DNA of 61,669 bases, the filler included, from Stramenopiles sp. TOSAG23-6 (Eukaryota): the NCBI GenBank assembly GCA_900128565.1. It is 14 parts of 14 records of this genome, joined end to end, with 100 filler letters (N's around TTAATTAATTAA, not from the genome) between each part and the next. Parts side by side here need not be neighbours in the genome. Positions count along the whole stretch, not along the records: positions 39,784 to 44,088 come from LT637200.1; 13 more parts are not named here. One strand, 5' to 3'. The notes under the pieces were generated by a model that searched no databases, was not told the DNA's origin, and saw only the letters and a program-made list of their open reading frames with translations. This document shows, piece by piece, positions 4,439 to 52,677 of the stretch (positions are counted from its first letter, which is position 1; each line of letters begins with the position of its first letter). A program made the position numbers and the translations under genes.

Positions 4439-5109
4439 CTCTGAACAGCTTCAACGAATGAGGTTGTACCTGACTTTGCGACAGTACCCAGATTTTCAAT
4501 TAGATCTTGCTTTGTCATTCCGATACCAGAATCAGTAATGGTTAACGTGCGTTTCTCTTCGTCAAATTTGATACGGATTTCAAGTTCCTCCTTGACAGCT
4601 AGAGCGTTTGGATCTTCGAGACCAAGGAAACGGATCTTATCAAGAGCGTCACTTGCGTTTGAGATAAGCTCGCGCAAGTAAATTTCTTTGTTCTTATAAA
4701 GCGAATTAATGATGATGTCCATCAGTCGACTTACTTCAGCCTGAAACTCAAAAGTTTCAGCTTCAGTTTCCATGGAGTCTTCCATTTCCTTAGTAATCTG
4801 TCATATGAAATATACAAAACGTCAAACAAAAATGAGTACGATGGAATAAAAATATACAATTCAGTCATAACTACATCAGTAGATTGAACTTGTAACACGG
4901 AAACATCTATTACAACTATTTTCGTGAGAATATGGGAAAGATAAAAGAGAGCTCAACCGACTAGGAACAATGTTAAAAAAGCTAACAAATTTACGTGGAA
5001 AACTTACTGCCGAAGCATCTACTGAAGCATCTTCTTCAGCATGGGCAACTTGCGTTGCTATGGCAAGAGCCATGAATGCGAAAATACAAAAGATATTTGA
5101 AATGCGCAT
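4439..5109 (-). CDS. HSP90B1: Endoplasmin / GRP94 (ER HSP90), 5' part
   Basis: Signal peptide [82 protein letters not shown]. Exons 5109-5008 and 4797-4439. Confidence 0.95.
4798..5007 (-). other. Canonical GT-AG spliceosomal intron (not of the repeat family)
   Basis: GCA|GTAAGT...TATGACAG|ATT, phase 0, 210 nt, no family core motif. Confidence 0.88.
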
Positions 5110-5473: not shown

Positions 5474-7467
<1,994 letters not shown>

Positions 7468-8678: not shown

Positions 8679-8939
8679 GTATGTTTTTTTTTTTTTCAAT
8701 TTCAAAATTTTGTTTCGTACGAAATTTCGTACCTAACGATATTTTTTGTGATGTCGTGTTTTTTCACAATACANNNNNNNNNNNNNNNNNNNNNNNNNNN
8801 NNNNNNNNNNNNNNNNNTTAATTAATTAANNNNNNNNNNNNNNNNNNNNNNNNNNNNNNNNNNNNNNNNNNNNTTTCGTACGAAATTTTGTACCTAACAA
8901 TTTTTAGTTTTTTTTTTGAAATATTTTTCCAAAATACAT

Positions 8940-11258
8940 GGCGGTAGTCGAAACAAAATAACTTACAACAACGCGCGAGGAGAAGATGGCTCAACAATGC
9001 TTCGTATTTTAAATACGAAAGCATGCAATCATGGTACGATGTATGCTGCATTAGTACATCGGATTGATTCATTTCGTCATTCGTCTTTTCGTGACAACGA
9101 TGGAATTTCAATTAAAAATGATTATTTTTTTGATTTTTCAATACGTTGTATTGGCGGCCGTGGCGAAACATATTCGTCTCACAATGCCTATAATTTCACC
9201 AAAACAATTCAAAGAATGGAAACCTCTGGCGTACCCGTGATGCTTGCAGCGCAAAGTCCAGTCGAACATGAAAAAAAAGATCTGACAATCCTGGGTCTGC
9301 ATTTATCAATATCTTTGACAACAACTCGTAGGTTTTTTTTTTCAAATTTAAAAAAATGTTTTTTGTACGAAATTTTGTACCTAACATTTTTTTTTTTTTA
9401 TTTTTTTTTTCACAATACATGCTACGAAAATCTTGGAGATGACAAAGATGTTGACATGCAAAATGTAATTCGATACGGCATGGTATCGATATCGCAAAAG
9501 CCAACGCGTAATGTCCAAACGGATCAGATTGAAAAAATGAAAAACAAGAATGTGACAAATTTAATTGTTTTCGATGGTGAAAATACCGGGAAAATTGAAG
9601 GATCTATTGGTATGAATGTTTTTAAGGTTGCCTTGTGTGCATCTCTTGTTCGCGTCGCTTTAAAGAAAAAAATAGATAGAAAACATAGAAAACGACAAGA
9701 TTATTCTCTTAATGATAGTGAAAATGATGTAAAGGATTTTGCAAAATTGGCGATGGTATCATTAGGCTTGAATGAGAATGAATCTGTGGAAGTTCCAACA
9801 AAACTTAAAGTACGTTTTAAANTTTCCATTTTTTTTTTATTTTATTTTTTTCATAGAAAATTCTGTACCTAACGATTTTTTTATTTGATATTTTTTTTTT
9901 TACATGACGAACATCAGAAACGTATCAATGCCAAAACATTAACTTCAATCCCAAGTGCCCATTTGGAAATAAAGGCAGGCTATTTTGCATCTACTGCGTT
10001 AGGGGCGACGATTCATTATGATAAACAAAATCAAGAAAATGGTTATATAAAAAAACCATTTCCATCGTTATGTCGTGTTGATTCGATTGAATACAATTTG
10101 ATCGAAAAAATCAGCAGGGAATTTACTAACCCTAAAGGTAAAGTAAAAGCGGCAATGCTCATCCGATTAGTTGGATTGGAGCCATTCTATTTGGAAAATG
10201 ATGATTTGGAAAGTGATGATTTGGAAAATGATGATTTGGAAAATGATGATTTGGAAATTAATGATTGGGAAGTTGGCGTCAAAAACATTGTAAAAAAAAT
10301 CCAAAATGTTGGTCAATTTCAATGTCATCGTGCAGCGCATGATGTTCGGTATTTTTCTCAAATCCGATTATATCAGGATAATAAAGAAAAATGTGAAAAT
10401 GTGATCAGTCATATAATTCGTGTTGTAGATGATGAGACAATCGATAATCTGCAATCGATCGAATCAATCAATGATTCTGTGGACAATATCTGTGAAAACT
10501 TGGAAATTTGTGGTAATAAAGTAAATAATTTAGAGAAGTACCACATAGCTGCCGATTTGGCAAAAGTTTTTGGTCTGAAATATGATCGACCTGATAAAGT
10601 CTATACGCAAACTTTTCGTGCTAATCGTGGTGAAGGACGAGGTTTTGCTGCAATATCTGCAACGCTTGCTCGGTATTATGAGAATGATATGAATGGTTTC
10701 CCAGGTTCTTCTCTTGGTCTTGCAGGCGAGCGAACTATGTTAAAAGATACTGCCGAGGCATTGAAAAGTGTATGTGATGTAGCTTTGGCAAAAAATAAAA
10801 ATGGTAATGAAAATCATAATGATACTGATGATACTGATGATACTGATGATGATATTAATAAAGACAATCCAACAAATCGTGATTATATTGAGAAAGCAAT
10901 AGAATCACATTTATTGATTGTTGACGATTTTATGGATATTACTGAATATTTGTGTGCTGTATGTTATGGATTATTTAATGCTATATGTACAATGCATAGA
11001 TTAACCAAAAATGATAATGACGATGATGATGAAAATGACGATGATGATGAAAATGATGATGAAAATGATGATGATGATAATACCAAATTTCTTCCTTTCT
11101 GTAAAAAGAATCGGATGATTCATAAAATTATTTCCTTTGATTTTGCAAAAACATATTACGATAAATACTATAAAGTTCGTAAAGAAGTTCAAAAGCGTAG
11201 TCGTGAAAGTCCTAATGTTGTTGAAAATGGTTCAAAACGTGCTCGTATAAATAGGTGA
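8940..11258 (+). CDS. Uncharacterised protein, 5'-partial, with Asp-rich low-complexity tracts
   Basis: Open frame across family introns 9328-9420 and 9810-9914/9917; DDLEN repeats; basic C-terminus. Confidence 0.7.
9328..9420 (+). mobile_element. Repeat-family intron, GT-AT, 93 nt (3n, stop-free)
   Basis: GTAGGTTTT...TTTTGTACGAAATTTTGTACCTAAC...CACAATACAT. Confidence 0.75.
9810..9917 (+). mobile_element. Repeat-family intron, acceptor AT (9914) or AG (9917)
   Basis: GTACGTTTT donor and GTACCTAAC core; both acceptors are in frame. Confidence 0.7.
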
Positions 11259-11539: not shown

Positions 11540-12965
11540 TTTTTTTTCATACGAAATTTCGTATGTAAAAAAAAATTNCAAAAAAAAANGTAATTTTTTT
11601 TTTCGAACGAAATTAAAAAAAATAAATATTTCTTTTGTAATGATACACAAACATAAAGTCACCAAAATGTTAAACATTAAACAAGAAATTTGAAAGAAAT
11701 CAATATAATGTTTATTAAAAGGTGGACTGTATCTATGTTAGGGTTAGGGTTATTTTTTCTTATCAAAAATTCTGAAAAAATAAATACAAAGATTTCGTGT
11801 AATATTCAAAAAGAATATCGATTTGAAAATTATTTTTTTAAAAAAATAAAAATTTTATGTTTTTCTGACAATGAACCAATGCTGTTCTATATCCATGCTC
11901 AGTATTGATAATAAGCCACATTGTGTCAGTTAAAAATTTTCAACATTTAACGGCTAGAAAATTCGTTGTCATTGCATCAAGATGAATAATAATATACCTA
12001 GGATTAGTTTTTTTTTTTTTTTCATACCTAATTTTGTACCTAACGATTTTTTTTTTTCTACGGTTGTTAGGGTTAGGGTTTGATTTTTTTTTTTTTTTTT
12101 TTAGGGTTAGGATTTGATTTTTGATACGAAACGATTTGTTTTTTCAAATAAATTTCACAATACACATCATCATACGCTATTAGTGTATCAATATTCCCTT
12201 CAATGATGCATTTTTGGTTTGTGTGCTGATCATAAAATGTTATTTGTTTAGTATTTGTTTTTTTTTCATACGCAATGTTGTACCTAACGATTTTTTTTAA
12301 AATATGTACAAAATTCTCTATGAAAAAAAACTAACTAGGATATTTCTATTTCAAAGATGATGAATTACATCGGTATAGATAAAAAGAAATTTATTGAACA
12401 AAACTTCAAGATTGTATAAATAACAACCGTATCTTCAAATTNAAAAAAAAAAAAAAAAAATTATGTATTAACTAGGGTTAGGGTTGCTATTCTTTGTCTA
12501 ATTATAATCAATTGAATTAAAATGGAACAATATACATCATCTATCAAATAAATTTCATTCATGATATAATCAATCAAATTACTCTTTATACCAATAAAAC
12601 GACGGAAAAGCATCAATTCAAAGCATTTCAAAAAAAATTATTTTCATACGAAATTTCGTACCTAACAAGAAAAAAAAAAATTATCTAACAATTTTTTTTT
12701 TTTTAGGGTTAGGGTTAGGAAAATTTGTAACGATTTGTTTTTGATATAAATTTCACAATACACATGATAGAAACTAAGAATGTATCTCAATTATTTTTAC
12801 AAAATATTATTTTTTTGTAATGTCTTAGGATTGTAATGTATTAGGAAAATGTCAAATTTTTTTTTTTTTTTTTTTTTGATTTCATACGAAATGTTGTACT
12901 TAACGATTTTTGTTTTTTTCGTACGAAATGTTGTACCTAACAATTTTTTTTTCAAATATATTCCT
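11540..12965 (+). repeat. Cluster of repeat-family intron cores with no recoverable ORF, some carrying TTAGGG tracts
   Basis: Cores near 11545, 12030, 12270, 12645, 12880 and 12920; TTCACAATACAC ends at ~12165 and ~12763; the stretch between the 12030 and 12270 elements has stops in all three forward frames. Confidence 0.6.
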
Positions 12966-17769: not shown

Positions 17770-18608
17770 GTGTTTATTACGAAATGCAAGTATTGTATCC
17801 AGGTTTTGCCCGTACGAGTAAATCTTAAAGCATGTACGTTTTCATCATGAATTTCAAATTTATTTTATTTTTTCGTACGAAATTTCATACCTAACGTTTT
17901 TTTTTACGAAAAAAAAAAAAAAAAAAAAAATTCACAATACATCTGTTCAGGCGATTGAACGACGTGTCGAGGAAAAAAAGAAAGAAATGCAAGATTTTAG
18001 TGAAGAATTCCAGCAAGCAAAAAAATTATTTGAAACAGCAAAAAATCTGTGGGAAAACGCAAAAGAAAAATATGAATTTGAGAGCAATAATGTTGATGTA
18101 TTATTACAAGCTCGAGATGACGTATACCAAAGTGCTCATGTTCCCGAGTCAATTGCTCTTGCAAAACTACCTATAATTGTGCGTTTCATTTTAATTTCAA
18201 ATTTATTTTTTTATTTTTTTATGTTTTGGTAGAAAATTTCGTACCTAACAAAAAACATTTCAAACTTAAAATGATATGGTTTCACAATACTTGCGGAGGT
18301 TCCAACAGGTTTAAAACCAGGAGATAAATTTGAAATGGTATCAATGAACGGCCAACCATTTAAAGTAAATGTCCCGTATAGAATGCCAAAGCCTCGTCCA
18401 GTTACAAATGATGAAATTTCAAGTCCTACGTCGAACACCTGGTTATTACGTGTACGTTTTCATTCTTTTTTTCATACGAAATTCCGTACCTAACGATTTT
18501 TTTGGAAATAATAACGATTTTTTTTTTGAAATATTTTTCACATTACATGTCGAACAGCCAGTGGAAAGTTCGAATGAAGAAAGTTCATCCAATTGTAAAC
18601 AACAATAA
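17770..18608 (+). CDS. Uncharacterised protein, 3' part (4 exons)
   Basis: Exons 17770-17833, 17943-18178, 18293-18451 and 18549-18608 join in frame (..LKA/SVQAIERR..LPII/AEVPTGLKPGDKF..WLLR/VEQP..stop). Confidence 0.75.
17834..17942 (+). mobile_element. Repeat-family intron, GT-AT
   Basis: Phase-1 join is in frame; the nearby AG at 17950 is out of frame. Confidence 0.82.
18179..18292 (+). mobile_element. Repeat-family intron, GT-TT, flanked TT/TT
   Basis: ATT|GTGCGT...CACAATACTT|GCG. Confidence 0.8.
18452..18548 (+). mobile_element. Repeat-family intron, GT-AT
   Basis: CGT|GTACGT...CACATTACAT|GTC. Confidence 0.78.
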
Positions 18609-18644: not shown

Positions 18645-20646
18645 CTAGTTTTGTGCAAATTCAGATAACATTTTGTGACAATCAGAATATTTTTTTCTTG
18701 CCACCGCACATGTATTTTGGAAAAATATTTTCAAAAAAAAAAACTTAAATTTGTTAGGTACAAAATTTCGTACGAAAAAAAATTCAAATTTGAAAAAAAA
18801 TAAAACATACTGAGCTGCGTCTTTGATTTCTTATTTAGGATGGTCATTGGACTCATTCCATCATTTGCTCGGTCATATAATGCATCTTTTTTTGTCATCT
18901 CTTTTGCTTTCCGCAACGCTTCTTTTGAAAATGGATAAAGAGAGATGTCAATAATATATTTTGGAAAAATATTTCAAAAAAAAAAATTTCAATTTGTTAA
19001 GTACAAAATTTCGTACGAAAAATAAATTCGATTTTTTTGTGAAAAAAAAAATAAAACATACATATCTGCCTTTTTATTTTCCACTTCTGTATCTTCAAAT
19101 ATTACTGGTGCAATCGTGGGTAAATAACGCATAAGTAGTTTCAAAATTTTGATATTTCCTTTTTCTGCTGCAACATGAAGCGCATTGTATCCATCAGTAC
19201 AAGTACTATGAAAAAATATTTTCAAAAAAAAAAACTAAAATTTGTTAGGTACAAAATTTCGTATGAAAAAATATAAATTTGAAATTATAATGAAAACGTA
19301 CGAGCTAAGCACACTAATGAACCAGATCGAAGTAAAATATCAACAATTTCATATTTTTCTAAACGAGTAGCAATATATAAAGGGCAATAGCCTCCCCTTT
19401 GTTGTATGTTTACATCCGCTCCGGCTCGAGCTAGCATTGCCACACAATTTTGATACCCACCAAGTACCGCAGCAAATATTGGGGTACATGTATTATGAAA
19501 AAAAAATTTAGTTAAAAAATTTGTTAGGTACGAAATTTCGTATGAAAAAAACAATTAGAAATTCATATCAAACGTACATCCACTTTTTTCATCAATAACG
19601 TTTATATTTGCAGAACTTTTGAGTAACCAAGATAGACAATCTCTTCTACCTCTGCGAGCAGATATAAAAAGGGCTGATATGCCATCTGTGCTTGTTTTCG
19701 TATCTATGTATTGTGAAAAATATTTTTTTTTTTTCAAATTTAACTTTTTTTTGTTTGGTATGAAATTTTGTAGTAAAAAAAAAAATCATGATGAAAACGT
19801 ACATATCAGCAGGAATATAACAATCCAGTAAAAATTTAACTACGTCAGCATGTCCATTTGATGCAGCGAGATATAACGCTGAGTGTCCATTGTCATCAGT
19901 AACATCAACTTTACTCCCCGCTTTTACTAAATATCGTATTGCACATATATTATAAAAAAAATTAAATTCGAAATTTGTTAGGTACAAAATTTCGTACGAA
20001 AAAAAAACAAAATTCGAAATTCATAATAAAAACGTACCTATCTTCCCCCGTGTAGCCGCAAGTAAAAAAGCAGTGTCCTCAGAATCCCCAACTCTTTGTA
20101 AGTGAACATGTATTGTGAAAAAACATTACAAGATTTTTGTTATTAGGTACAAAATTTTTCAAAAAAAAAAATAGACAAAAAAAAAAGAAAACGTACATCT
20201 GCACCAGCTTTTAAAAGTTCACGGACAGATTTTGAATTTCCTGATATTGCCGCGGCGTGCAAAGGTGTTGTATTGTTATATATCAGAGGTTTATCTACAT
20301 TTACACCCGCTTCAATTAATTTCCGCACACAATTCGACCCTGACAGACCTGTTGCTTTCCAACAAGCCAAAAATATTGGCGAAATACCATTTTCAAGAGA
20401 AGTATTTGGATCTCCACCTGATTTAATCAGTAGTGAAAGAGCATTGATGCGCCCCTGTGCAGCAGCTGTACAAATAGGCGTGGCCCCACACTCTATTGGC
20501 AAGTTTACACTAGCCCCACTATCTATTAAACGTCGGAGGGAATCACAATCTCCAAACTGAGCATTTGAATATACTTCTTCAGAATTTCTACTCAATATTT
20601 TATTACCCCAGTCATTGGCGGCAGAGCTTTGCTGGTTTGTGCTCAT
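18645..20646 (-). CDS. Ankyrin-repeat protein, 8 exons
   Basis: TPICTAAAQG, TPLHAAAISG, SALYLAASNGH, TPIFAAVLGG, NALHVAAEKG. Seven family introns: 20108-20196, 19945-20037, 19706-19802, 19488-19577, 19201-19301, 18954-19061 and 18710-18810. Confidence 0.9.
18710..18810 (-). mobile_element. Repeat-family intron, GT-AT
   Basis: TQL S|AVARKK in frame to the stop codon. Confidence 0.78.
18954..19061 (-). mobile_element. Repeat-family intron, GT-AT (identical to 21729-21836)
   Basis: KAD I|IDISLYP in frame. Confidence 0.75.
19201..19301 (-). mobile_element. Repeat-family intron, GT-TT
   Basis: Restores LA R|TDGYNALHVAA. Confidence 0.82.
19488..19577 (-). mobile_element. Repeat-family intron, GT-AT
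   Basis: Restores KSG C|TPIFAA; ATGTAC is duplicated at both junctions. Confidence 0.88.
19706..19802 (-). mobile_element. Repeat-family intron, GT-AT
   Basis: Restores PAD I|DTKTSTDGISALF. Confidence 0.85.
19945..20037 (-). mobile_element. Repeat-family intron, GT-AT
   Basis: Restores ATRGKI G|AIRYLVKAG. Confidence 0.82.
20108..20196 (-). mobile_element. Repeat-family intron, GT-AT
   Basis: Restores KAGAD|VHLQRVGDSEDTAFLLAA. Confidence 0.86.
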
Positions 20647-20958: not shown

Positions 20959-21979
20959 ATGTATACGCAGCATTTTCCAAGCCAAGAACAATATCAGCAA
21001 TATGGACACTCTCAACAATTTAGACAGCCTCAACAATATCAACAACAACAATTTAGACAGCCTCAACAATATCAACAACAACAATTTAGACAACCTCAAC
21101 AATATCACCAACAACAATTTAGACAGCCTGAACAATATCAACAACAACAATTTAGACAACCTCAACAATATCATCAACAACAATTTAGACAACCTCAACA
21201 ATATCAACAACAACAATTTAGACAGCCTCAACAATATCAACAACAACAATTTAGACAACAATATCACCAAACGCAATATGAAATTCAACAACAGCCGCTT
21301 AGATATCAGACACAATATGGAGATGTTGTTCTCCAGTCAAACGATCGATCTTTTTCTCGAAGCAAATCCCCATTTAGACCAGTCTCTGCGTCAAGCGATG
21401 AATCCATTAATTCTCAAAGCAAAAACGCTGTATGTTTTATTTTTTTTTTTAACAAAAAAATCGAATTTTTTTTTCGTACGCAATTTTGTACCTAACAAAA
21501 TTTTTTTGAAATATTTTCCAAAATACCTACAACTCAAGACAAGATGTCAGAAAAAGAATTTAAATTAGCAAAAACAGCAAAAGAAAGTATAGCTTCAGTA
21601 ATGGAACTAGTATCCAAATTTCGGAATAAGGATTTTTGTATAACGCAAGCAAGCAAAGCAAAATCTGCAGCAAATCATGTTGCTAAAGAAAGTGCTCTCT
21701 CCGCTTGTAAAGTGACGGAAGAAGCACTGTATGTTTTATTTTTTTTTTCACAAAAAAATCGAATTTATTTTTCGTACGAAATTTTGTACTTAACAAATTG
21801 AAATTTTTTTTTTTGAAATATTTTTCCAAAATATATTATTGACATCTCTCTTTATCCATTTTCAAAAGAAGCGTTGCGGAAAGCAAAAGAGATGACAAAA
21901 AAAGATGCATTATATGACCGAGCAAATGATGGAATGAGTCCAATGACCATCCTAAATAAGAAATCAAAGACGCAGCTCA
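20959..21979 (+). CDS. Gln-rich repeat protein, 3'-partial
   Basis: QFRQPQQYQQQ repeats; introns at 21430-21528, 21729-21836 and from 21980. Confidence 0.7.
21013..21270 (+). repeat. 33-bp coding tandem repeat, about 7.5 copies
   Basis: CAACAATTTAGACARCCTCAACAATATCAACAA. Confidence 0.95.
21430..21528 (+). mobile_element. Repeat-family intron, GT-CT, flanked CT/CT
   Basis: GCT|GTATGT...CCAAAATACCT|ACA gives KNA|TTQDKMSEK. Confidence 0.8.
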
Positions 21980-22034
21980 GTATGTTTTATTTTTTTTCAA
22001 ATTTGAATTTTTTTTCGTACGAAATTTTGTACCT
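21729..22034. repeat. 306-bp inverted duplicate of 18756-19061 (intron + exon + partial intron)
   Basis: Appears identical, including the rare GTACTTAAC core variant. Confidence 0.92.
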
Positions 22035-22134
22035 NNNNNNNNNNNNNNNNNNNNNNNNNNNNNNNNNNNNNNNNNNNNTTAATTAATTAANNNNNNNNNN
22101 NNNNNNNNNNNNNNNNNNNNNNNNNNNNNNNNNN

Positions 22135-30213: not shown

Positions 30214-30801
30214 TTATAAAATAAACTCATCNTTANTNAATGATTNANCTTTTCTATTATCTTGTTTTGTCGATTTCGTGTCGTTGACGTCATCAGCAGA
30301 CGGATCATCATCATTGAAAAATGATTTCGAATTTACATCAAAAATAGAAGTAGGACTGTATTTTGAAAAATATTTGAAAAAAAAAAACTTGAATTTGTTA
30401 GGTACAAAATTTCGTACGAAAAAAAAATCGAATTTGAAAAGAAAAAGATACCTGCTCAACTCTTCTTCATATTTTTGGTCAAATGACACATTGAGAACAT
30501 TCATAGATACATCATTTACTTTATCTTTTAAATGTTGCTCATCATCCGGATGTTTTTTGTCTTGATTTGATTTATTTTTTAAATGTTGCTTATCATCCTC
30601 CCACATTTTATGACGTTTCAAAATTTTCATTTCTTGATTAATTCTTGAACGTTTTTTTGTTTTTTCTTTGGACAGTCTCAAAATATCATGATCAAGTTCA
30701 GAAAGAAGTATAGTGTTTTCAAAATCAAAAAATGATTTATTGTGTATATCCATTAAATCATTATATTGCCCCAACGTTTGAATGATTTCCTTATCAAGAC
30801 G
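30214..30801 (-). CDS. Coiled-coil protein, 3' part
   Basis: Exons 30801-30452 and 30355-30214; the upstream family intron ends in AT at 30802. Confidence 0.6.
   Translation of the reverse strand, partial: RLDKEIIQTLGQYNDLMDIHNKSFFDFENTILLSELDHDILRLSKEKTKKRSRINQEMKILKRHKMWEDDKQHLKNKSNQDKKHPDDEQHLKDKVNDVSMNVLNVSFDQKYEEELSRYLFLFKFDFFFVRNFVPNKFKFFFFKYFSKYSPTSIFDVNSKSFFNDDDPSADDVNDTKSTKQDNRKXXSXXXDEFIL
30356..30451 (-). mobile_element. Repeat-family intron, GT-AG, flanked AG/AG, 96 nt (3n, stop-free)
   Basis: AG|GTATCT...TTTCGTACGAAATTTTGTACCTAAC...CAAAATACAG|T. Confidence 0.85.
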
Positions 30802-43391: not shown

Positions 43392-43820
43392 ATGGATCTC
43401 TCCTCGTCTTCCTCGTCGTCATCCTATGAGCCTCGGTCCTGGATTTCTTGGTTTACTGAACAGCAAAAGAATCAATTCTTTTGTATGGTAGATTACGAAT
43501 TCATTGAAAGTACATTCAATTTATATGGGCTTCGAAGTGATGTGTCGAGGTTTAGCTACTGTCGAAATATATTAACAGAAGAAATTGATAGTTCTTCTGA
43601 TGGTAGTACAGTACCAAGTGAATGGGAAAGTCCCCTTTGTGCTGATCTATATGGTCGAATACATGCTCGATTTATCAATACTGATGCCGGCCAAGCAACA
43701 ATGGAAGCCAAATATCTTAATGGTGATTTTGGTCAATGCCCTCGATTTGCTTGCAATGGCCAGAATGTTTTACCTGTCGGACTCTCTGACATTCCTAATC
43801 AGTCCACTGTGAAGGTCTAT
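43392..43820 (+). CDS. CSNK2B: Casein kinase II beta subunit, first exon
   Basis: SWISWF..NQFFCMVDYEFI..FNLYGL, LYGRIHARFI, DFGQCPR, LPVGLSDIP..TVKVY. Confidence 0.93.
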
Positions 43821-43909
43821 GTATGTTTTATTTATTTTTTTTTCGTACGAAATTTTGTACCTAACAAAATTTTTTAGATTTTTTTTCAAAATATTTTTCC
43901 AAAATACAT
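43821..43909 (+). mobile_element. Repeat-family intron, GT-AT (possibly chimeric)
   Basis: Near-consensus sequence; the downstream exon 43910-44031 is open but is not CK2-beta. Confidence 0.75.
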
Positions 43910-44029
43910 GTATTTGAGCAAAATAAGCAGTTCCCAGTGTCTCAACTAAAAGGTTACAAACGTGTGGAACAAAAGGGCCAATTACTATCTCTAATTCGTT
44001 TTGCTGACGACTTAGGGGTTTATCGTCTA

Positions 44030-44081
<52 letters not shown>

Positions 44082-44188: not shown

Positions 44189-45612
44189 AAATATTACATT
44201 TATTTTAGAAAAATATTAAAAAAAAAAAAAAACTAAAATTTGTTAGGTACAAAATTTCGTACGAAAAAATAAATTCGATTTTTCTGTAAAAAAAAATGTT
44301 AGGTACAAAATTTCGTACGAAAAATAAATTCGAAATCGAAAAAAATCGTTAGGTACAAAATTTCGTACGAAAAAAAAAATCGTTTTTTTCTGTAAAAAAA
44401 ATATAAAACATACACTATTATTTGTATTTGAAACTGTACCAAATTCAGTTTGTGTAGCTCCTGGTACGACATTTGTTAGTAAAATACCTTTGAGAGCATA
44501 TTGTATACAAAAATATTTCAAAAATGATTTTTTTTTGTTAGGTACGAAATTTGGTATGAAAAAAAAAATCAATTCTTTTTTTGTGTTTTTGTTTTTTTTT
44601 GTTTGGTATGAAATTTTGTATGAAATGTTTAATGTAGAATTAAACTATTAAGTAATGAAAAACGTACTAATTCATAATGTAATGATTGACAAATAGAAGT
44701 TGTAAATGCTTTTGTAGCTGCATATAGAGCATTTGTAGGTTGTGGACTAATTCCAACAATTGAACTAATAACAATAATTCGACCATTAGGGTTAGGGTTA
44801 TTTGTACAAAAAAAGTTTTGTACAGTTTTTGTTTTTGTTTTTGTTTTTGTTTTACTATCATTATTATTATTATTAGTAGTAGTAGTAGTACTACTACTAC
44901 TACTACTACTACCATTATCACTACAATCATCATTATTATCATTATTATTATTACTCCTTATCATATGATTTGCAATAGAATATAATAAATTCGTTAATGA
45001 AAAAACATTTAACGATAAAATTTTGTCGATTTCTTTCTTGTCTAAATCTAAAAATAATTTTCTTTTTGCAACTCCTGCAGCACAGACTAAAAGTACAATA
45101 TGACCTGTATTATTTGTTATTTTTTGTATATGGTTTTGTATATAAGAGCCAACATCAAAATCGGAGGTTAAATCAAGAGATAAATATGCTATATTTTGTG
45201 TTTTTTTTTGTGTTGTTCTTGAATTAGCAACGCATTTTGTATCTAATGAGTTTCCAACTTTTTGCTTATTTTTACACGTAAAAGTCAACTTGGATGATAA
45301 TAATTCGCTTTGAAGTTGTTTTAACTTTTCTGTACGTCTTGCAACCAACAGGATATTGAAACCTCTTTGTGACAAATCTCGAGCACATTCTAAACCTATA
45401 CCTGAACTCGCGCCTGTTACTACAGCCCATCCATTCATTGATGGTTCTAGTTTTTTAATTTTACGTAGATTGAATGAGTGTAAAGCATATGATACGACTT
45501 GAAGTATTGTAATGAACACAAGCATTCGTTTAATAAACACTGTAAACACAAGAGTATGATATATAGATGAATCAAACATGATTGCTATAATAGTACACGC
45601 CATGGCTAACAA
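44189..45612 (-). CDS. Short-chain dehydrogenase/reductase (KCR/17beta-HSD-like), partial
   Basis: [46 protein letters not shown] introns at 44498-44667 and 44198-44413. Confidence 0.92.
44198..44413 (-). mobile_element. Repeat-family intron with three tandem cores, GT-AT
   Basis: TTCGTACGAAATTTTGTACCTAAC x3 at ~50-55-nt spacing. Confidence 0.82.
44498..44667 (-). mobile_element. Repeat-family intron, GT-AT
   Basis: Restores LHYEL|ALKGI; the next AG is out of frame. Confidence 0.85.
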
Positions 45613-51789: not shown

Positions 51790-52677
51790 CTAAGTCCAAA
51801 AAAGATCTTCTTCTTGAATAAAATGAAATATTTGTTTTGATTTCCGAGATTTTTTTTTTTTTGTAGGGTAAGATTTCTTCTTTATATCATTTATATCAAA
51901 CTTTGCAGAATAAATCTTTCTTTTATTATTACCTGGTACTAGTATATTCGGAATTGAACAATCTGTACCATATTTTGTACCTAATGATTTTTGAAAAGCA
52001 ACTTGAAAATTTTGACATTGTACGTCTTCCAAAATATAACTTTTTCTAGCACTTGTAATACACTCTGTATCTAACGATTTATTGAATAGAGACTGACTTT
52101 TACAAGTACTTTTTTTTTTCGTTTTCAATAGTTTTTTTTTATTTCTTTTTTTTTTTGTTTTGTTTGGCCCGATTTTATTTTGTTTTGTACCAAATTTTGT
52201 ACCTAACGAGTTTAACATTGTTGAGGAAGGATCAAATGTATTTTTTTTAATAGTATTTAAAGATTCTGTGATGTGATATCGATTTTGCTGATCAAGTAAA
52301 AGATGTGTTTGATCATTTTTGTCATTCTCTGTGACTTTTATACCAAATTCCGTACCTAACGAATTTCGAATTTGTTCTGTGGCATGTCTCTTAAGGTGTT
52401 GGTGTAAAGAATATTTTTGATTATATATAATATTCTGTACTTGATTGTTTTGGAGCTGTATATGGGATGCTGTATCTTTATCTATCTTGCTGTGAGAATA
52501 TACTTGATGTTTGTTCATTTTTTCTAACTTTAAAAAGTATTTTTGTGCATGCGTCCGAATTTGTGTCAGAGATCTTGTCTTTACAATATTACCTATAAGT
52601 TTCCAATTTTTACCATATTGTTCAACGCCTCTCAAAAATAGTTGATGTTCATGAGCTGCCCAAGTTCCAGAATTCAT
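51790..52677 (-). CDS. SHAQKYF-class single-Myb transcription factor
   Basis: GTWAAHEHQLFLRGVEQYGKNWKLIGNIVKTRSLTQIRTHAQKYF. Confidence 0.93.
   Translation of the reverse strand: MNSGTWAAHEHQLFLRGVEQYGKNWKLIGNIVKTRSLTQIRTHAQKYFLKLEKMNKHQVYSHSKIDKDTASHIQLQNNQVQNIIYNQKYSLHQHLKRHATEQIRNSLGTEFGIKVTENDKNDQTHLLLDQQNRYHITESLNTIKKNTFDPSSTMLNSLGTKFGTKQNKIGPNKTKKKRNKKKLLKTKKKSTCKSQSLFNKSLDTECITSARKSYILEDVQCQNFQVAFQKSLGTKYGTDCSIPNILVPGNNKRKIYSAKFDINDIKKKSYPTKKKKSRKSKQIFHFIQEEDLFWT

What the first reader, a model, noticed from the sequence alone, without database searches (positions are those of the whole stretch)
43821..43909. Conserved internal core: a 12-bp palindrome fused to an extended branch-point motif, set unusually far from the acceptor
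Seen: TTTCGTACGAAA is a perfect palindrome followed directly by TTTTGTACCTAAC. Variants include TTCATACGAAATTTCGTACCTAAC, which forms two staggered copies of TTTYGTAC. Hand-counted distance from CTAAY to the intron end is 43, 43, 44, 41, 47, 45, 35, 34 and 32 nt, and the spacer is A/T-rich and typically lacks AG. Established: the U2 branch consensus is TACTAAC and the U12 consensus is TCCTTAAC; TACCTAAC lies between them. Inference: an extended snRNA pairing or a dedicated protein may replace AG recognition, and pairing of 5' GTATGTTTT with 3' AAAATAC could bring the splice sites together.
Basis: partly seen in the sequence, partly recalled or inferred. Interest (0 to 1): 0.7.

Follow-up and report, generated by a model that had tools for sequence, protein, structure and literature searches.

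The report
AT-ending introns with a matched U1
The motif is the branch-site core of a short intron copied thousands of times through a marine protist genome; these introns mostly end in AT instead of AG, and the genome's U1 splicing RNA gene has changed so that it matches their start.

Summary
The motif is real (9,037 exact 13-mers in 21 Mb). It is the middle of a ~97-nt repeated intron family in a MAST-3-like stramenopile. Frames, stop codons, homologues and one polyA-RNA contig show removal from GT to the two bases after ...AATAC (AT in 134 of 180); these two bases tend to repeat the last two exon bases, like a 2-bp target duplication. The branch-point reading is likely but unproven. New: the only U1 gene found (two loci) has three changes at its 5' end, all complementary to this family's donor (10.1 versus 7.4 of 11 pairs), while ordinary introns fit a standard U1 better. 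The scan had already noted this family and core on other DNA of this genome, but no note shown mentions the U1 change. The copy at 43821 is probably an assembly chimera at its 3' end. No lariat, no U1 expression data, no transposase partner.

The parts
43392..43820 (+). Exon 1 of casein kinase II beta, ending at a codon boundary
   Evidence: Pfam CK_II_beta positions 1-127, E 6e-39; 90% identical to P0001
43819..43820 (+). Last two exon bases (AT), left copy of the 2-nt repeat; pair with U1 positions 9-10
43821..43829 (+). Donor box GTATGTTTT, complementary to the variant U1 5' end
43841..43852 (+). 12-bp palindrome; inherited element sequence and the most decayed box; no evidence for a hairpin
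43853..43865 (+). Branch box TTTTGTACCTAAC; inferred branch A at 43864
   Evidence: Conservation; standard U2; no lariat data
43866..43895 (+). A/T-rich spacer with one skipped AG at 43876-43877; the probable mis-join lies at or before 43890
43896..43909 (+). 3' box ending AAAATAC plus terminal AT (inferred 3' splice site after 43909); probably taken from another copy
43910..44034 (+). Open exon of an unrelated gene, followed by another donor-like GT and a poly-T run at the contig end
   Evidence: No Pfam hit; no similarity to P0001; sequence
6650..6758 (+). Family member in methionyl-tRNA synthetase; GT..AT removal restores the frame
   Evidence: gene name from my reading of the translation
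18710..20196 (-). Seven family members in one ankyrin-repeat gene
18179..18292 (+). Member with TT on both sides (GT..TT)
21430..21528 (+). Member with CT on both sides (GT..CT)
30356..30451 (-). Member with AG on both sides (a GT..AG copy of the same family)
44198..44413 (-). Member with three tandem cores
4801..5010 (-). Ordinary 210-nt GTAAGT..AG intron in an HSP90-family gene, used for comparison; coordinates approximate, branch-like site 35 nt from the end

Best explanation
The motif is the built-in branch site of a family of ~97-nt mobile-element-derived introns (introners) spliced by the major (U2) spliceosome. Step 1 (shown in DNA): copies sit in the sense direction in unrelated genes, in all three phases, with a 2-nt repeat at their ends and a weakly symmetric C-AT-G target. 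Inferred: a staggered-cut insertion duplicated two bases. Step 2 (gene shown, use inferred): a U1 whose 5' end reads AAACGUACAU pairs with up to 11 bases of the donor region CAU|GUAYGUUU and fixes the cut at GT. Step 3 (inferred): standard U2 pairs with CUAAC and the last A is the branch; the longer invariant box is kept by a protein or by pairing around a bulged C. Step 4 (cut shown, rule inferred): the 3' cut falls two bases after ...AATAC whatever those bases are, at least ~32 nt from the branch. The acceptor is therefore chosen by position and the 3' box, not by AG. One copy of the repeat leaves with the intron, so the coding sequence is restored exactly. The palindrome is inherited element sequence, perhaps a DNA-level site, and is not needed as an RNA hairpin.
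For: Family: 180 full copies called from 300 core clusters; 156 found from ends alone with 0 in the reversed control; nearest unrelated copy median 87% identical with homopolymers capped; genome-wide 1,940 AT-ended against 87 AG-ended matches to one strict pattern. Removal: GT..AC plus 2 nt needed in 50 of 53 testable copies, phases 18/16/16; join open on the element strand in 152 of 165 and on the other strand in 36. One polyA RNA contig (run X9, depth 5, 190 and 135 nt on the sides) skips exactly the 92-nt gamma-tubulin copy, and none of its five equivalent cuts ends in AG. Register: of 51 copies with unequal end dinucleotides, 3 give a stop only if the cut is shifted to NNGT..AC; gamma-tubulin copy 3 gives the Phe seen in 104 of 104 homologues only with the GT cut. 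Repeat: equal dinucleotides in 120 of 180 (permutation mean 91.7, max 107 of 5,000); non-AT matches 18 (mean 3.1, max 12). U1: three differences from the Rfam consensus in the first 11 nt; mean pairs 10.1 against 7.4; duplex -9.3 against -2.0 kcal/mol; better in 174 of 180; no gain in the shifted register (5.9 against 5.8). U2, U5 loop 1, the U6 ACAGAGA box and the Prp8 core are standard.
Against: Only one RNA contig shows a junction; the joint table was swamped by the repeat. No lariat data. An AG-ending cut that keeps the frame exists near 64 of 180 copies. One copy (L053) gives a stop only under the GT cut, in a join that has another stop too. Gamma-tubulin copy 2 gives the conserved Met only under the shifted cut; that exon end is odd and the RNA contig stops matching 19 nt before it. 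The U1 scores 54.1 bits, below the family cut-off of 69.5, has an altered loop II, and its expression is untested. Six ordinary donors pair better with a standard U1 by duplex energy, so a second U1 may be missing from the assembly. Inverted end repeats are weak and no transposase with matching ends was found. Two divergent CK2-beta paralogues carry a copy at the same codon boundary, which is unexpected for independent recent insertion.
Confidence: 0.68

Rival explanations
1. Same introns and branch site, but the variant U1 is a by-product (pseudogene or minor paralogue), and an unassembled standard U1 does the work, as in yeasts and Micromonas, which keep a standard U1 with atypical donors.
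For: U1 below the Rfam cut-off with an altered loop II; ordinary GTAAGT donors fit a standard U1 better; the genome is incomplete; standard U1 with atypical donors in 69 yeasts and in Micromonas (10.1101/2022.06.08.495308, section 16).
Against: All three changes match the family donor, including the exonic -1 base. The gene lies between intact U2 and U4 genes at two loci. No standard U1 was found by model, pattern or DNA search.
Confidence: 0.13
2. The core is mainly a DNA-level signal of the mobile element (a binding site made of direct and inverted GTAC repeats) or neutral inheritance, and branching happens elsewhere or loosely.
For: The repeat architecture of the core; solo and tandem cores outside recognisable introns; a core inside a Harbinger-like element; the invariant extra C is not explained by U2 pairing.
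Against: The branch box stays near 3% divergence in the 47 copies whose palindrome has lost three or more bases (the box was part of the search key there, but one search agrees). Its distance to the 3' end has a sharp lower edge near 32-33 nt and matches ordinary introns. A binding-site model would favour the palindrome, which is the part that decays.
Confidence: 0.09
3. One reading: an extended snRNA pairing to the core, or pairing of the intron's 5' and 3' ends or a palindrome hairpin, replaces AG recognition.
For: The ends are partly complementary; a 6-bp hairpin just before CUAAC is predicted in 46% of 180 folds; paired cells of the palindrome slightly exceed shuffles (9 of 500).
Against: Standard U2; no both-side change in the 6-bp hairpin; apparent compensations in the palindrome are decay to T and A runs and are matched by slid controls; the 5'/3' pair at +4 is broken in 70 of 180 copies.
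Confidence: 0.05
4. The introns are cut two bases earlier at both ends (mostly AT..AC), by the minor spliceosome or in a shifted register.
For: The 3' AC is more constant than the two bases after it; the cDNA junction is ambiguous where the repeat is intact; gamma-tubulin copy 2.
Against: Three stop-codon cases and the Phe case; U1 fits only the GT register; no U11, U12 or U6atac found (inconclusive); the donor lacks the U12 consensus (recalled).
Confidence: 0.04

Closest known systems
[quoted passage not shown]
   Same: Many similar short introns in unrelated genes, a locus-specific repeat at the junctions, exact restoration of the coding sequence, an aquatic protist host.
   Different: The repeat is 2 nt (3-9 bp cited in PMC9860276) and need not be AG; the 3' end is mostly AT; inverted repeats are weak; the element carries a long fixed branch box; no autonomous partner was found.
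Non-canonical U2-type introns of Fritillaria borealis and F. pellucida (PMC13326754: abstract, section 21, first part of section 26)
   Same: Transposon-like introns removed without a 3' AG; 3' AT is frequent; a YAY triplet often sits both before the donor and at the intron end; ordinary GT-AG introns coexist.
   Different: Fritillaria donors are mostly non-GT and its two U1 versions have identical 5' ends, with adaptation by U2AF duplication and m6A. Here the donor is GT in 170 of 180 copies, one sequence family dominates, and the U1 5' sequence itself has changed.
Co-evolved U1 snRNAs of Entamoeba and Mastigamoeba (10.1101/2022.06.08.495308: abstract, section 16, first part of section 21)
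   Same: A U1 5' end altered to match an atypical donor consensus.
   Different: That paper counts three changes over two lineages and concerns the general donor consensus. Here three changes lie in one U1, one of them opposite an exon base, and match a repeat family, while standard donors persist.
Lineages with strong branch boxes and constrained branch-to-acceptor distance (hemiascomycete yeasts, Trichomonas, Ostreococcus; PMC2483917 abstract and passages)
   Same: A near-invariant branch motif and a limited distance to the 3' end.
   Different: Those lineages are intron-poor, keep AG and mostly have short distances. Here the box has an extra C, the distance is 33-46 nt, and the genome holds thousands of copies.

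Membership tests
Introner (mobile-element-derived intron family) | Many sequence-similar introns at unrelated gene positions | tested here: met
   180 full copies; nearest unrelated copy median 87%; 1,940 plus 87 strict matches genome-wide
Introner (mobile-element-derived intron family) | Removed from RNA with the coding sequence restored | tested here: met
   50 of 53 by frame; one RNA contig
Introner (mobile-element-derived intron family) | Locus-specific junction repeat (target-site duplication) | tested here: met
   120 of 180 equal, 18 non-AT matches against 3.1 expected
Introner (mobile-element-derived intron family) | Recent gain shown by empty-site alleles or intron-less orthologues | tested here: inconclusive
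   The listed DNA contigs of run X2 end near the copies and no joined DNA form was listed; no relative's genome could be searched
MITE / non-autonomous TIR transposon | Clear terminal inverted repeats | tested here: inconclusive
   About 4 bp plus T/A runs; +4 pair broken in 70 of 180
MITE / non-autonomous TIR transposon | Autonomous element with the same ends | tested here: not met
   Three transposase families searched; the Harbinger-like element has its own unrelated 28-bp inverted repeats; other families were not searched
U2-type (major) spliceosomal intron | GT donor pairing with U1, G at +5 for U6 | tested here: met
   GT in 170 of 180; pairing; standard U6 box
U2-type (major) spliceosomal intron | Branch A used to form a lariat | not testable with these tools
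   Only contigs were available; motif and distance are consistent
U2-type (major) spliceosomal intron | Terminal AG | tested here: not met
   AG in 8 of 180, AT in 134; works like a U2 intron but is non-canonical
U12-type (minor) intron | U11, U12 and U6atac present | tested here: inconclusive
   None found, but the genome is incomplete and the controls could not ring
U12-type (minor) intron | AT-AC register with the U12 donor consensus | tested here: not met
   Stop-codon and homology cases favour the GT register; the consensus itself is recalled
Structure-guided non-conventional introns (euglenid type) | Stable pairing that joins the intron ends | tested here: not met
   End pair probability above 0.5 in 24% of 180 folds; no covariation

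The most novel reading that the evidence does not exclude
The host runs two recognition routes in one major spliceosome. A dedicated U1 variant, co-evolved with an invading intron family, commits thousands of GT..NN introns whose 3' end is set by the branch site and the AATAC box with no AG check (U2AF35 lost or bypassed). A standard U1, or none, serves the older GT-AG introns.
Probability: 0.3. Interest if true: 0.9.

Novelty: new variant of a known kind. Interest (0 to 1): 0.7.

Why it matters
It would be a natural case of a core spliceosomal RNA changing to fit a mobile intron family. The Fritillaria study names this route as plausible but not taken there. It also offers thousands of natural substrates for asking how a 3' splice site is chosen without AG. 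In practice, a public model of the gamma-tubulin gene (P0107) loses conserved residues at each of its three copies, so gene models for this organism are likely wrong wherever the family sits. The palindrome by itself matters little.

Tried and rejected
Special U2 or U12: U2 is standard; U12, U6atac and U11 were not found. Second, standard U1: 58 pattern matches against 68 for the control; 8 of those loci scanned with Rfam, 0 hits; the DNA search found only the two known loci. Hairpins and end pairing: rejected; the excess over shuffles for the palindrome reflects block-wise decay, since the strongest mutual information is between neighbouring columns. U2AF35: not found by one pattern (the single hit was another gene), among 16 zinc-finger matches, or at one candidate locus; SF1 was not found. 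These are not evidence of loss, and the question stays open. A U2AF65-like gene is present. Transposase partner: none with matching ends. The element in viral contigs: 0; in JGI metagenome contigs: 1 locus with one typical copy. U5-U2 cluster in metagenomes: 0, so no relative's U1 could be read. Ab initio calling of ordinary introns was too noisy to use (21 candidates); seven hand-read introns were used instead. A search for a transcript-derived ankyrin protein found only distant relatives. PDH-E1-alpha and the other copies on L141 showed no listed junction contig. Runs with small shares were not used as habitat evidence. Rfam found nothing in the window. Literature searches that found no report of this family; two MAST genome papers searched by word do not discuss their introns; no supplements were read, and the family tables of PMC9860276 and PMC12130899 could list it.

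Full report
Observation. The palindrome (43841-43852) and the following 13-mer (43853-43865) are as described. The 13-mer has 71 matches with up to two mismatches in the window against 4.5 expected, and 9,037 exact matches in the 21.1-Mb genome G000 against one control match (some contigs are duplicated). The window is a string of short contigs joined by N-linkers, and the finding lies on G000:C2502. A public protein model labelled GSMAST32 (P0107) matches this genome's gamma-tubulin piece by piece. I therefore read the organism as a MAST-3-like marine stramenopile; this rests on the label, not on a tree.

What the motif belongs to. In the window and the G000 loci held, 300 core clusters gave 180 full elements; the other 120 lie at edges, are degenerate or are solo cores. 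An element has three boxes joined by T/A-rich spacers: a donor GTAYGTTTT, the core, and a 3' box ending in AATAC. The median length is 97 nt. Searching by the two end boxes alone found 156 elements (0 in reversed sequence), of which 129 contain TACCTAAY. The nearest copy at an unrelated locus is 87% identical at the median and 96% at best, with homopolymers capped. A strict three-box pattern matches 1,940 times with a terminal AT and 87 times with AG.

It is an intron, cut from GT to two bases past the 3' box. In 50 of 53 copies with a unique frame on both sides, removal must cover GT..AC plus two bases, with phases 18/16/16. The join is open on the element strand in 152 of 165 cases and on the other strand in 36. 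One contig of polyA run X9 joins L141:8595-8784 to 8877-9011 and so skips exactly the 92-nt first copy in gamma-tubulin; none of the five equivalent cuts ends in AG. This is the only junction I could see, because the repeat swamped the joint table. The last two bases are AT in 134 of 180 copies, TT 18, GT 12, AG 8 and other 8. They equal the last two exon bases in 120 of 180 (permutation mean 91.7, maximum 107), with 18 non-AT matches against 3.1 expected. The empty site is weakly symmetric: C before and G after the pair in 51 and 57 of 120. This fits a 2-bp target duplication, although splicing preferences could add to it.

Register. Among 51 copies outside the window with unequal end pairs, three give a stop codon only if both cuts are moved two bases left, and one gives a stop only with the GT cut, in a join that has another stop as well. 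The third gamma-tubulin copy yields the Phe found in 104 of 104 homologues only as a GT..GT intron. The second copy argues the other way (Met only with the shifted cut), but that exon end matches no homologue except this genome's own model, and the RNA contig stops matching 19 nt before it. I take it as a probable assembly error. An in-frame AG alternative exists near 64 of 180 copies. The public model P0107, which deviates at each copy, loses conserved residues at all three gamma-tubulin junctions.

The core. The branch-box positions are 88-97% conserved apart from the C/T position, while the four C and G bases of the palindrome are 60-75% conserved. The palindrome is perfect in 64 of 180 copies. 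Where it has lost three or more bases (47 copies), the branch box still diverges by under 3% (the box was part of the search key in that set). The most variable positions of the donor and core are CpG sites. The palindrome hairpin is not predicted (probability 0.01). An overlapping 6-bp hairpin is predicted in 46% of folds but shows no both-side change in 55 distinct sequences, drawn from 61 of the 180 copies. For the palindrome, both-side changes equal those of slid controls and are decay into T and A runs. Pairing of the two intron ends is broken at +4 in 70 of 180 copies, with 3 compensated.

Distance. Branch A to 3' end has a median of 37.5 nt, two modes at 33-36 and 43-45, and few values below 32. 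Six of seven hand-read GT-AG introns of this genome have their best branch-like site 34-38 nt from the AG (a small, hand-picked set). The distance is long but normal for this host. AG is about half as frequent in the spacer as in shuffles, yet 52 of 180 spacers contain one, including this copy.

The machinery. U5, U2, U1 and U4 genes lie head to tail at two loci. U2's branch-pairing region and U5 loop 1 are standard, as is the U6 ACAGAGA box. The 941-residue Prp8 segment examined aligns to human Prp8 with one gap. U12, U6atac and U11 were not found, which is inconclusive. U1 begins AAACGUACAUGG where the Rfam consensus has AUACUUACCUGG. The three changes, at positions 2, 5 and 9, pair with +7 U, +4 C/U and the exonic -1 U of the family donor. 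Over 180 donors this end makes 10.1 of 11 pairs against 7.4 for the standard end, -9.3 against -2.0 kcal/mol, and is better in 174; it gives no gain in the shifted register. Against reading too much into this: the gene scores 54.1 bits (cut-off 69.5), its loop II differs, its expression is unknown, and six ordinary donors form more stable duplexes with the standard end. No standard U1 was found. U2AF35 and SF1 were not found and a U2AF65-like gene was; the assembly is incomplete, so this stays open.

This copy. Exon 1 is CK2-beta. The exon after 43909 is unrelated. The matching exon 2 is on G000:C2046, whose end shares 53 identical bases with window 43838-43890; the next best among 249 other cores is 43. 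The true intron is therefore probably a longer two-core copy that also ends in AT before the next codon, and the window copy is a chimera. A second CK2-beta paralogue has a copy at the same codon boundary, which I cannot explain by independent recent insertion.

Origin. Transposases of three Pfam families were sought. A Harbinger-like two-ORF element has its own 28-bp inverted repeats, unrelated to the intron ends, and holds a solo core. ISL2EU elements make AT duplications (PMC4482050, passages), which is a lead only.

Comparison and verdict. It works like a U2-type intron and meets the introner criteria I could test, but fails the terminal-AG test and is not shown to be a MITE. The closest systems are introners that take their 3' site from a target duplication (PMC9860276 passages; PMC11282704 parts 1-3; PMC12130899 passages), the non-canonical introns of Fritillaria, whose U1 versions have identical 5' ends (PMC13326754 abstract, section 21, first part of section 26), and the co-evolved U1s of Entamoeba and Mastigamoeba (10.1101/2022.06.08.495308 abstract, section 16, first part of section 21). 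Six literature searches showed no report of this family; supplements were not read. The scan's own notes describe the family and this core many times in this genome; none of the notes shown mentions a changed U1 gene, and a word search found none. Verdict: a new variant of a known kind. The palindrome alone would rate about 0.3; the AG-less family with a matching U1 rates 0.7.

Noticed in passing
L006:9-645 and L007:9-645 (G000:C1146, C6122): U5, U2, U1 and U4 genes lie head to tail with gaps of 2, 23 and 5 nt at two loci, leaving no room for separate promoters; possibly one precursor. A conserved stretch after U4 looks tRNA-like, but ARAGORN finds nothing.
   Followed up: partly
L006:349-508: Besides its 5' end, the U1 has an altered loop II relative to the Rfam consensus.
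   Followed up: no
L061 (G000:C3813) and L140 (G000:C2046): Two divergent CK2-beta paralogues have a family copy at the same codon boundary; a third paralogue (C428) matches the whole Pfam model in one open frame.
   Followed up: partly
window 12020-12941, 15512, 51973-52360: Solo or degenerate cores without recognisable end boxes, in apparently non-coding DNA or opposite a Myb-like gene.
   Followed up: no
family-wide: The most variable positions of the donor and core are CpG sites, often changed to TG or CA, which hints at methylation; the branch-to-end distance has two modes about 10 nt apart.
   Followed up: partly
family-wide: 10 of 180 copies start with GA, AT, GC or GG instead of GT; long U1 pairing might tolerate this.
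   Followed up: no
L167:502-3609 (G000:C2432): Intact-looking Harbinger-like transposon: a transposase and a second convergent ORF, 28-bp inverted repeats, and a solo core between the two stop codons.
   Followed up: yes
window 21729-22040 versus 18760-19061: Inverted duplication that joins an element to the wrong exon; with mirror-image contigs (C2, C4) this points to amplification or assembly artefacts at the repeat.
   Followed up: partly
element bins of L141: RNA runs X7 and X8 hold many contigs with element sequence, which may mean retained introns, pre-mRNA or DNA in the library.
   Followed up: no
window 12066-12110, 12706-12720, 44787-44799: TTAGGG-like hexamers are scattered through A/T-rich DNA and inside genes.
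   Followed up: no
L094 (metagenome contig): One typical AT/AT copy in a gene on a JGI metagenome contig, showing the family outside this assembly.
   Followed up: partly
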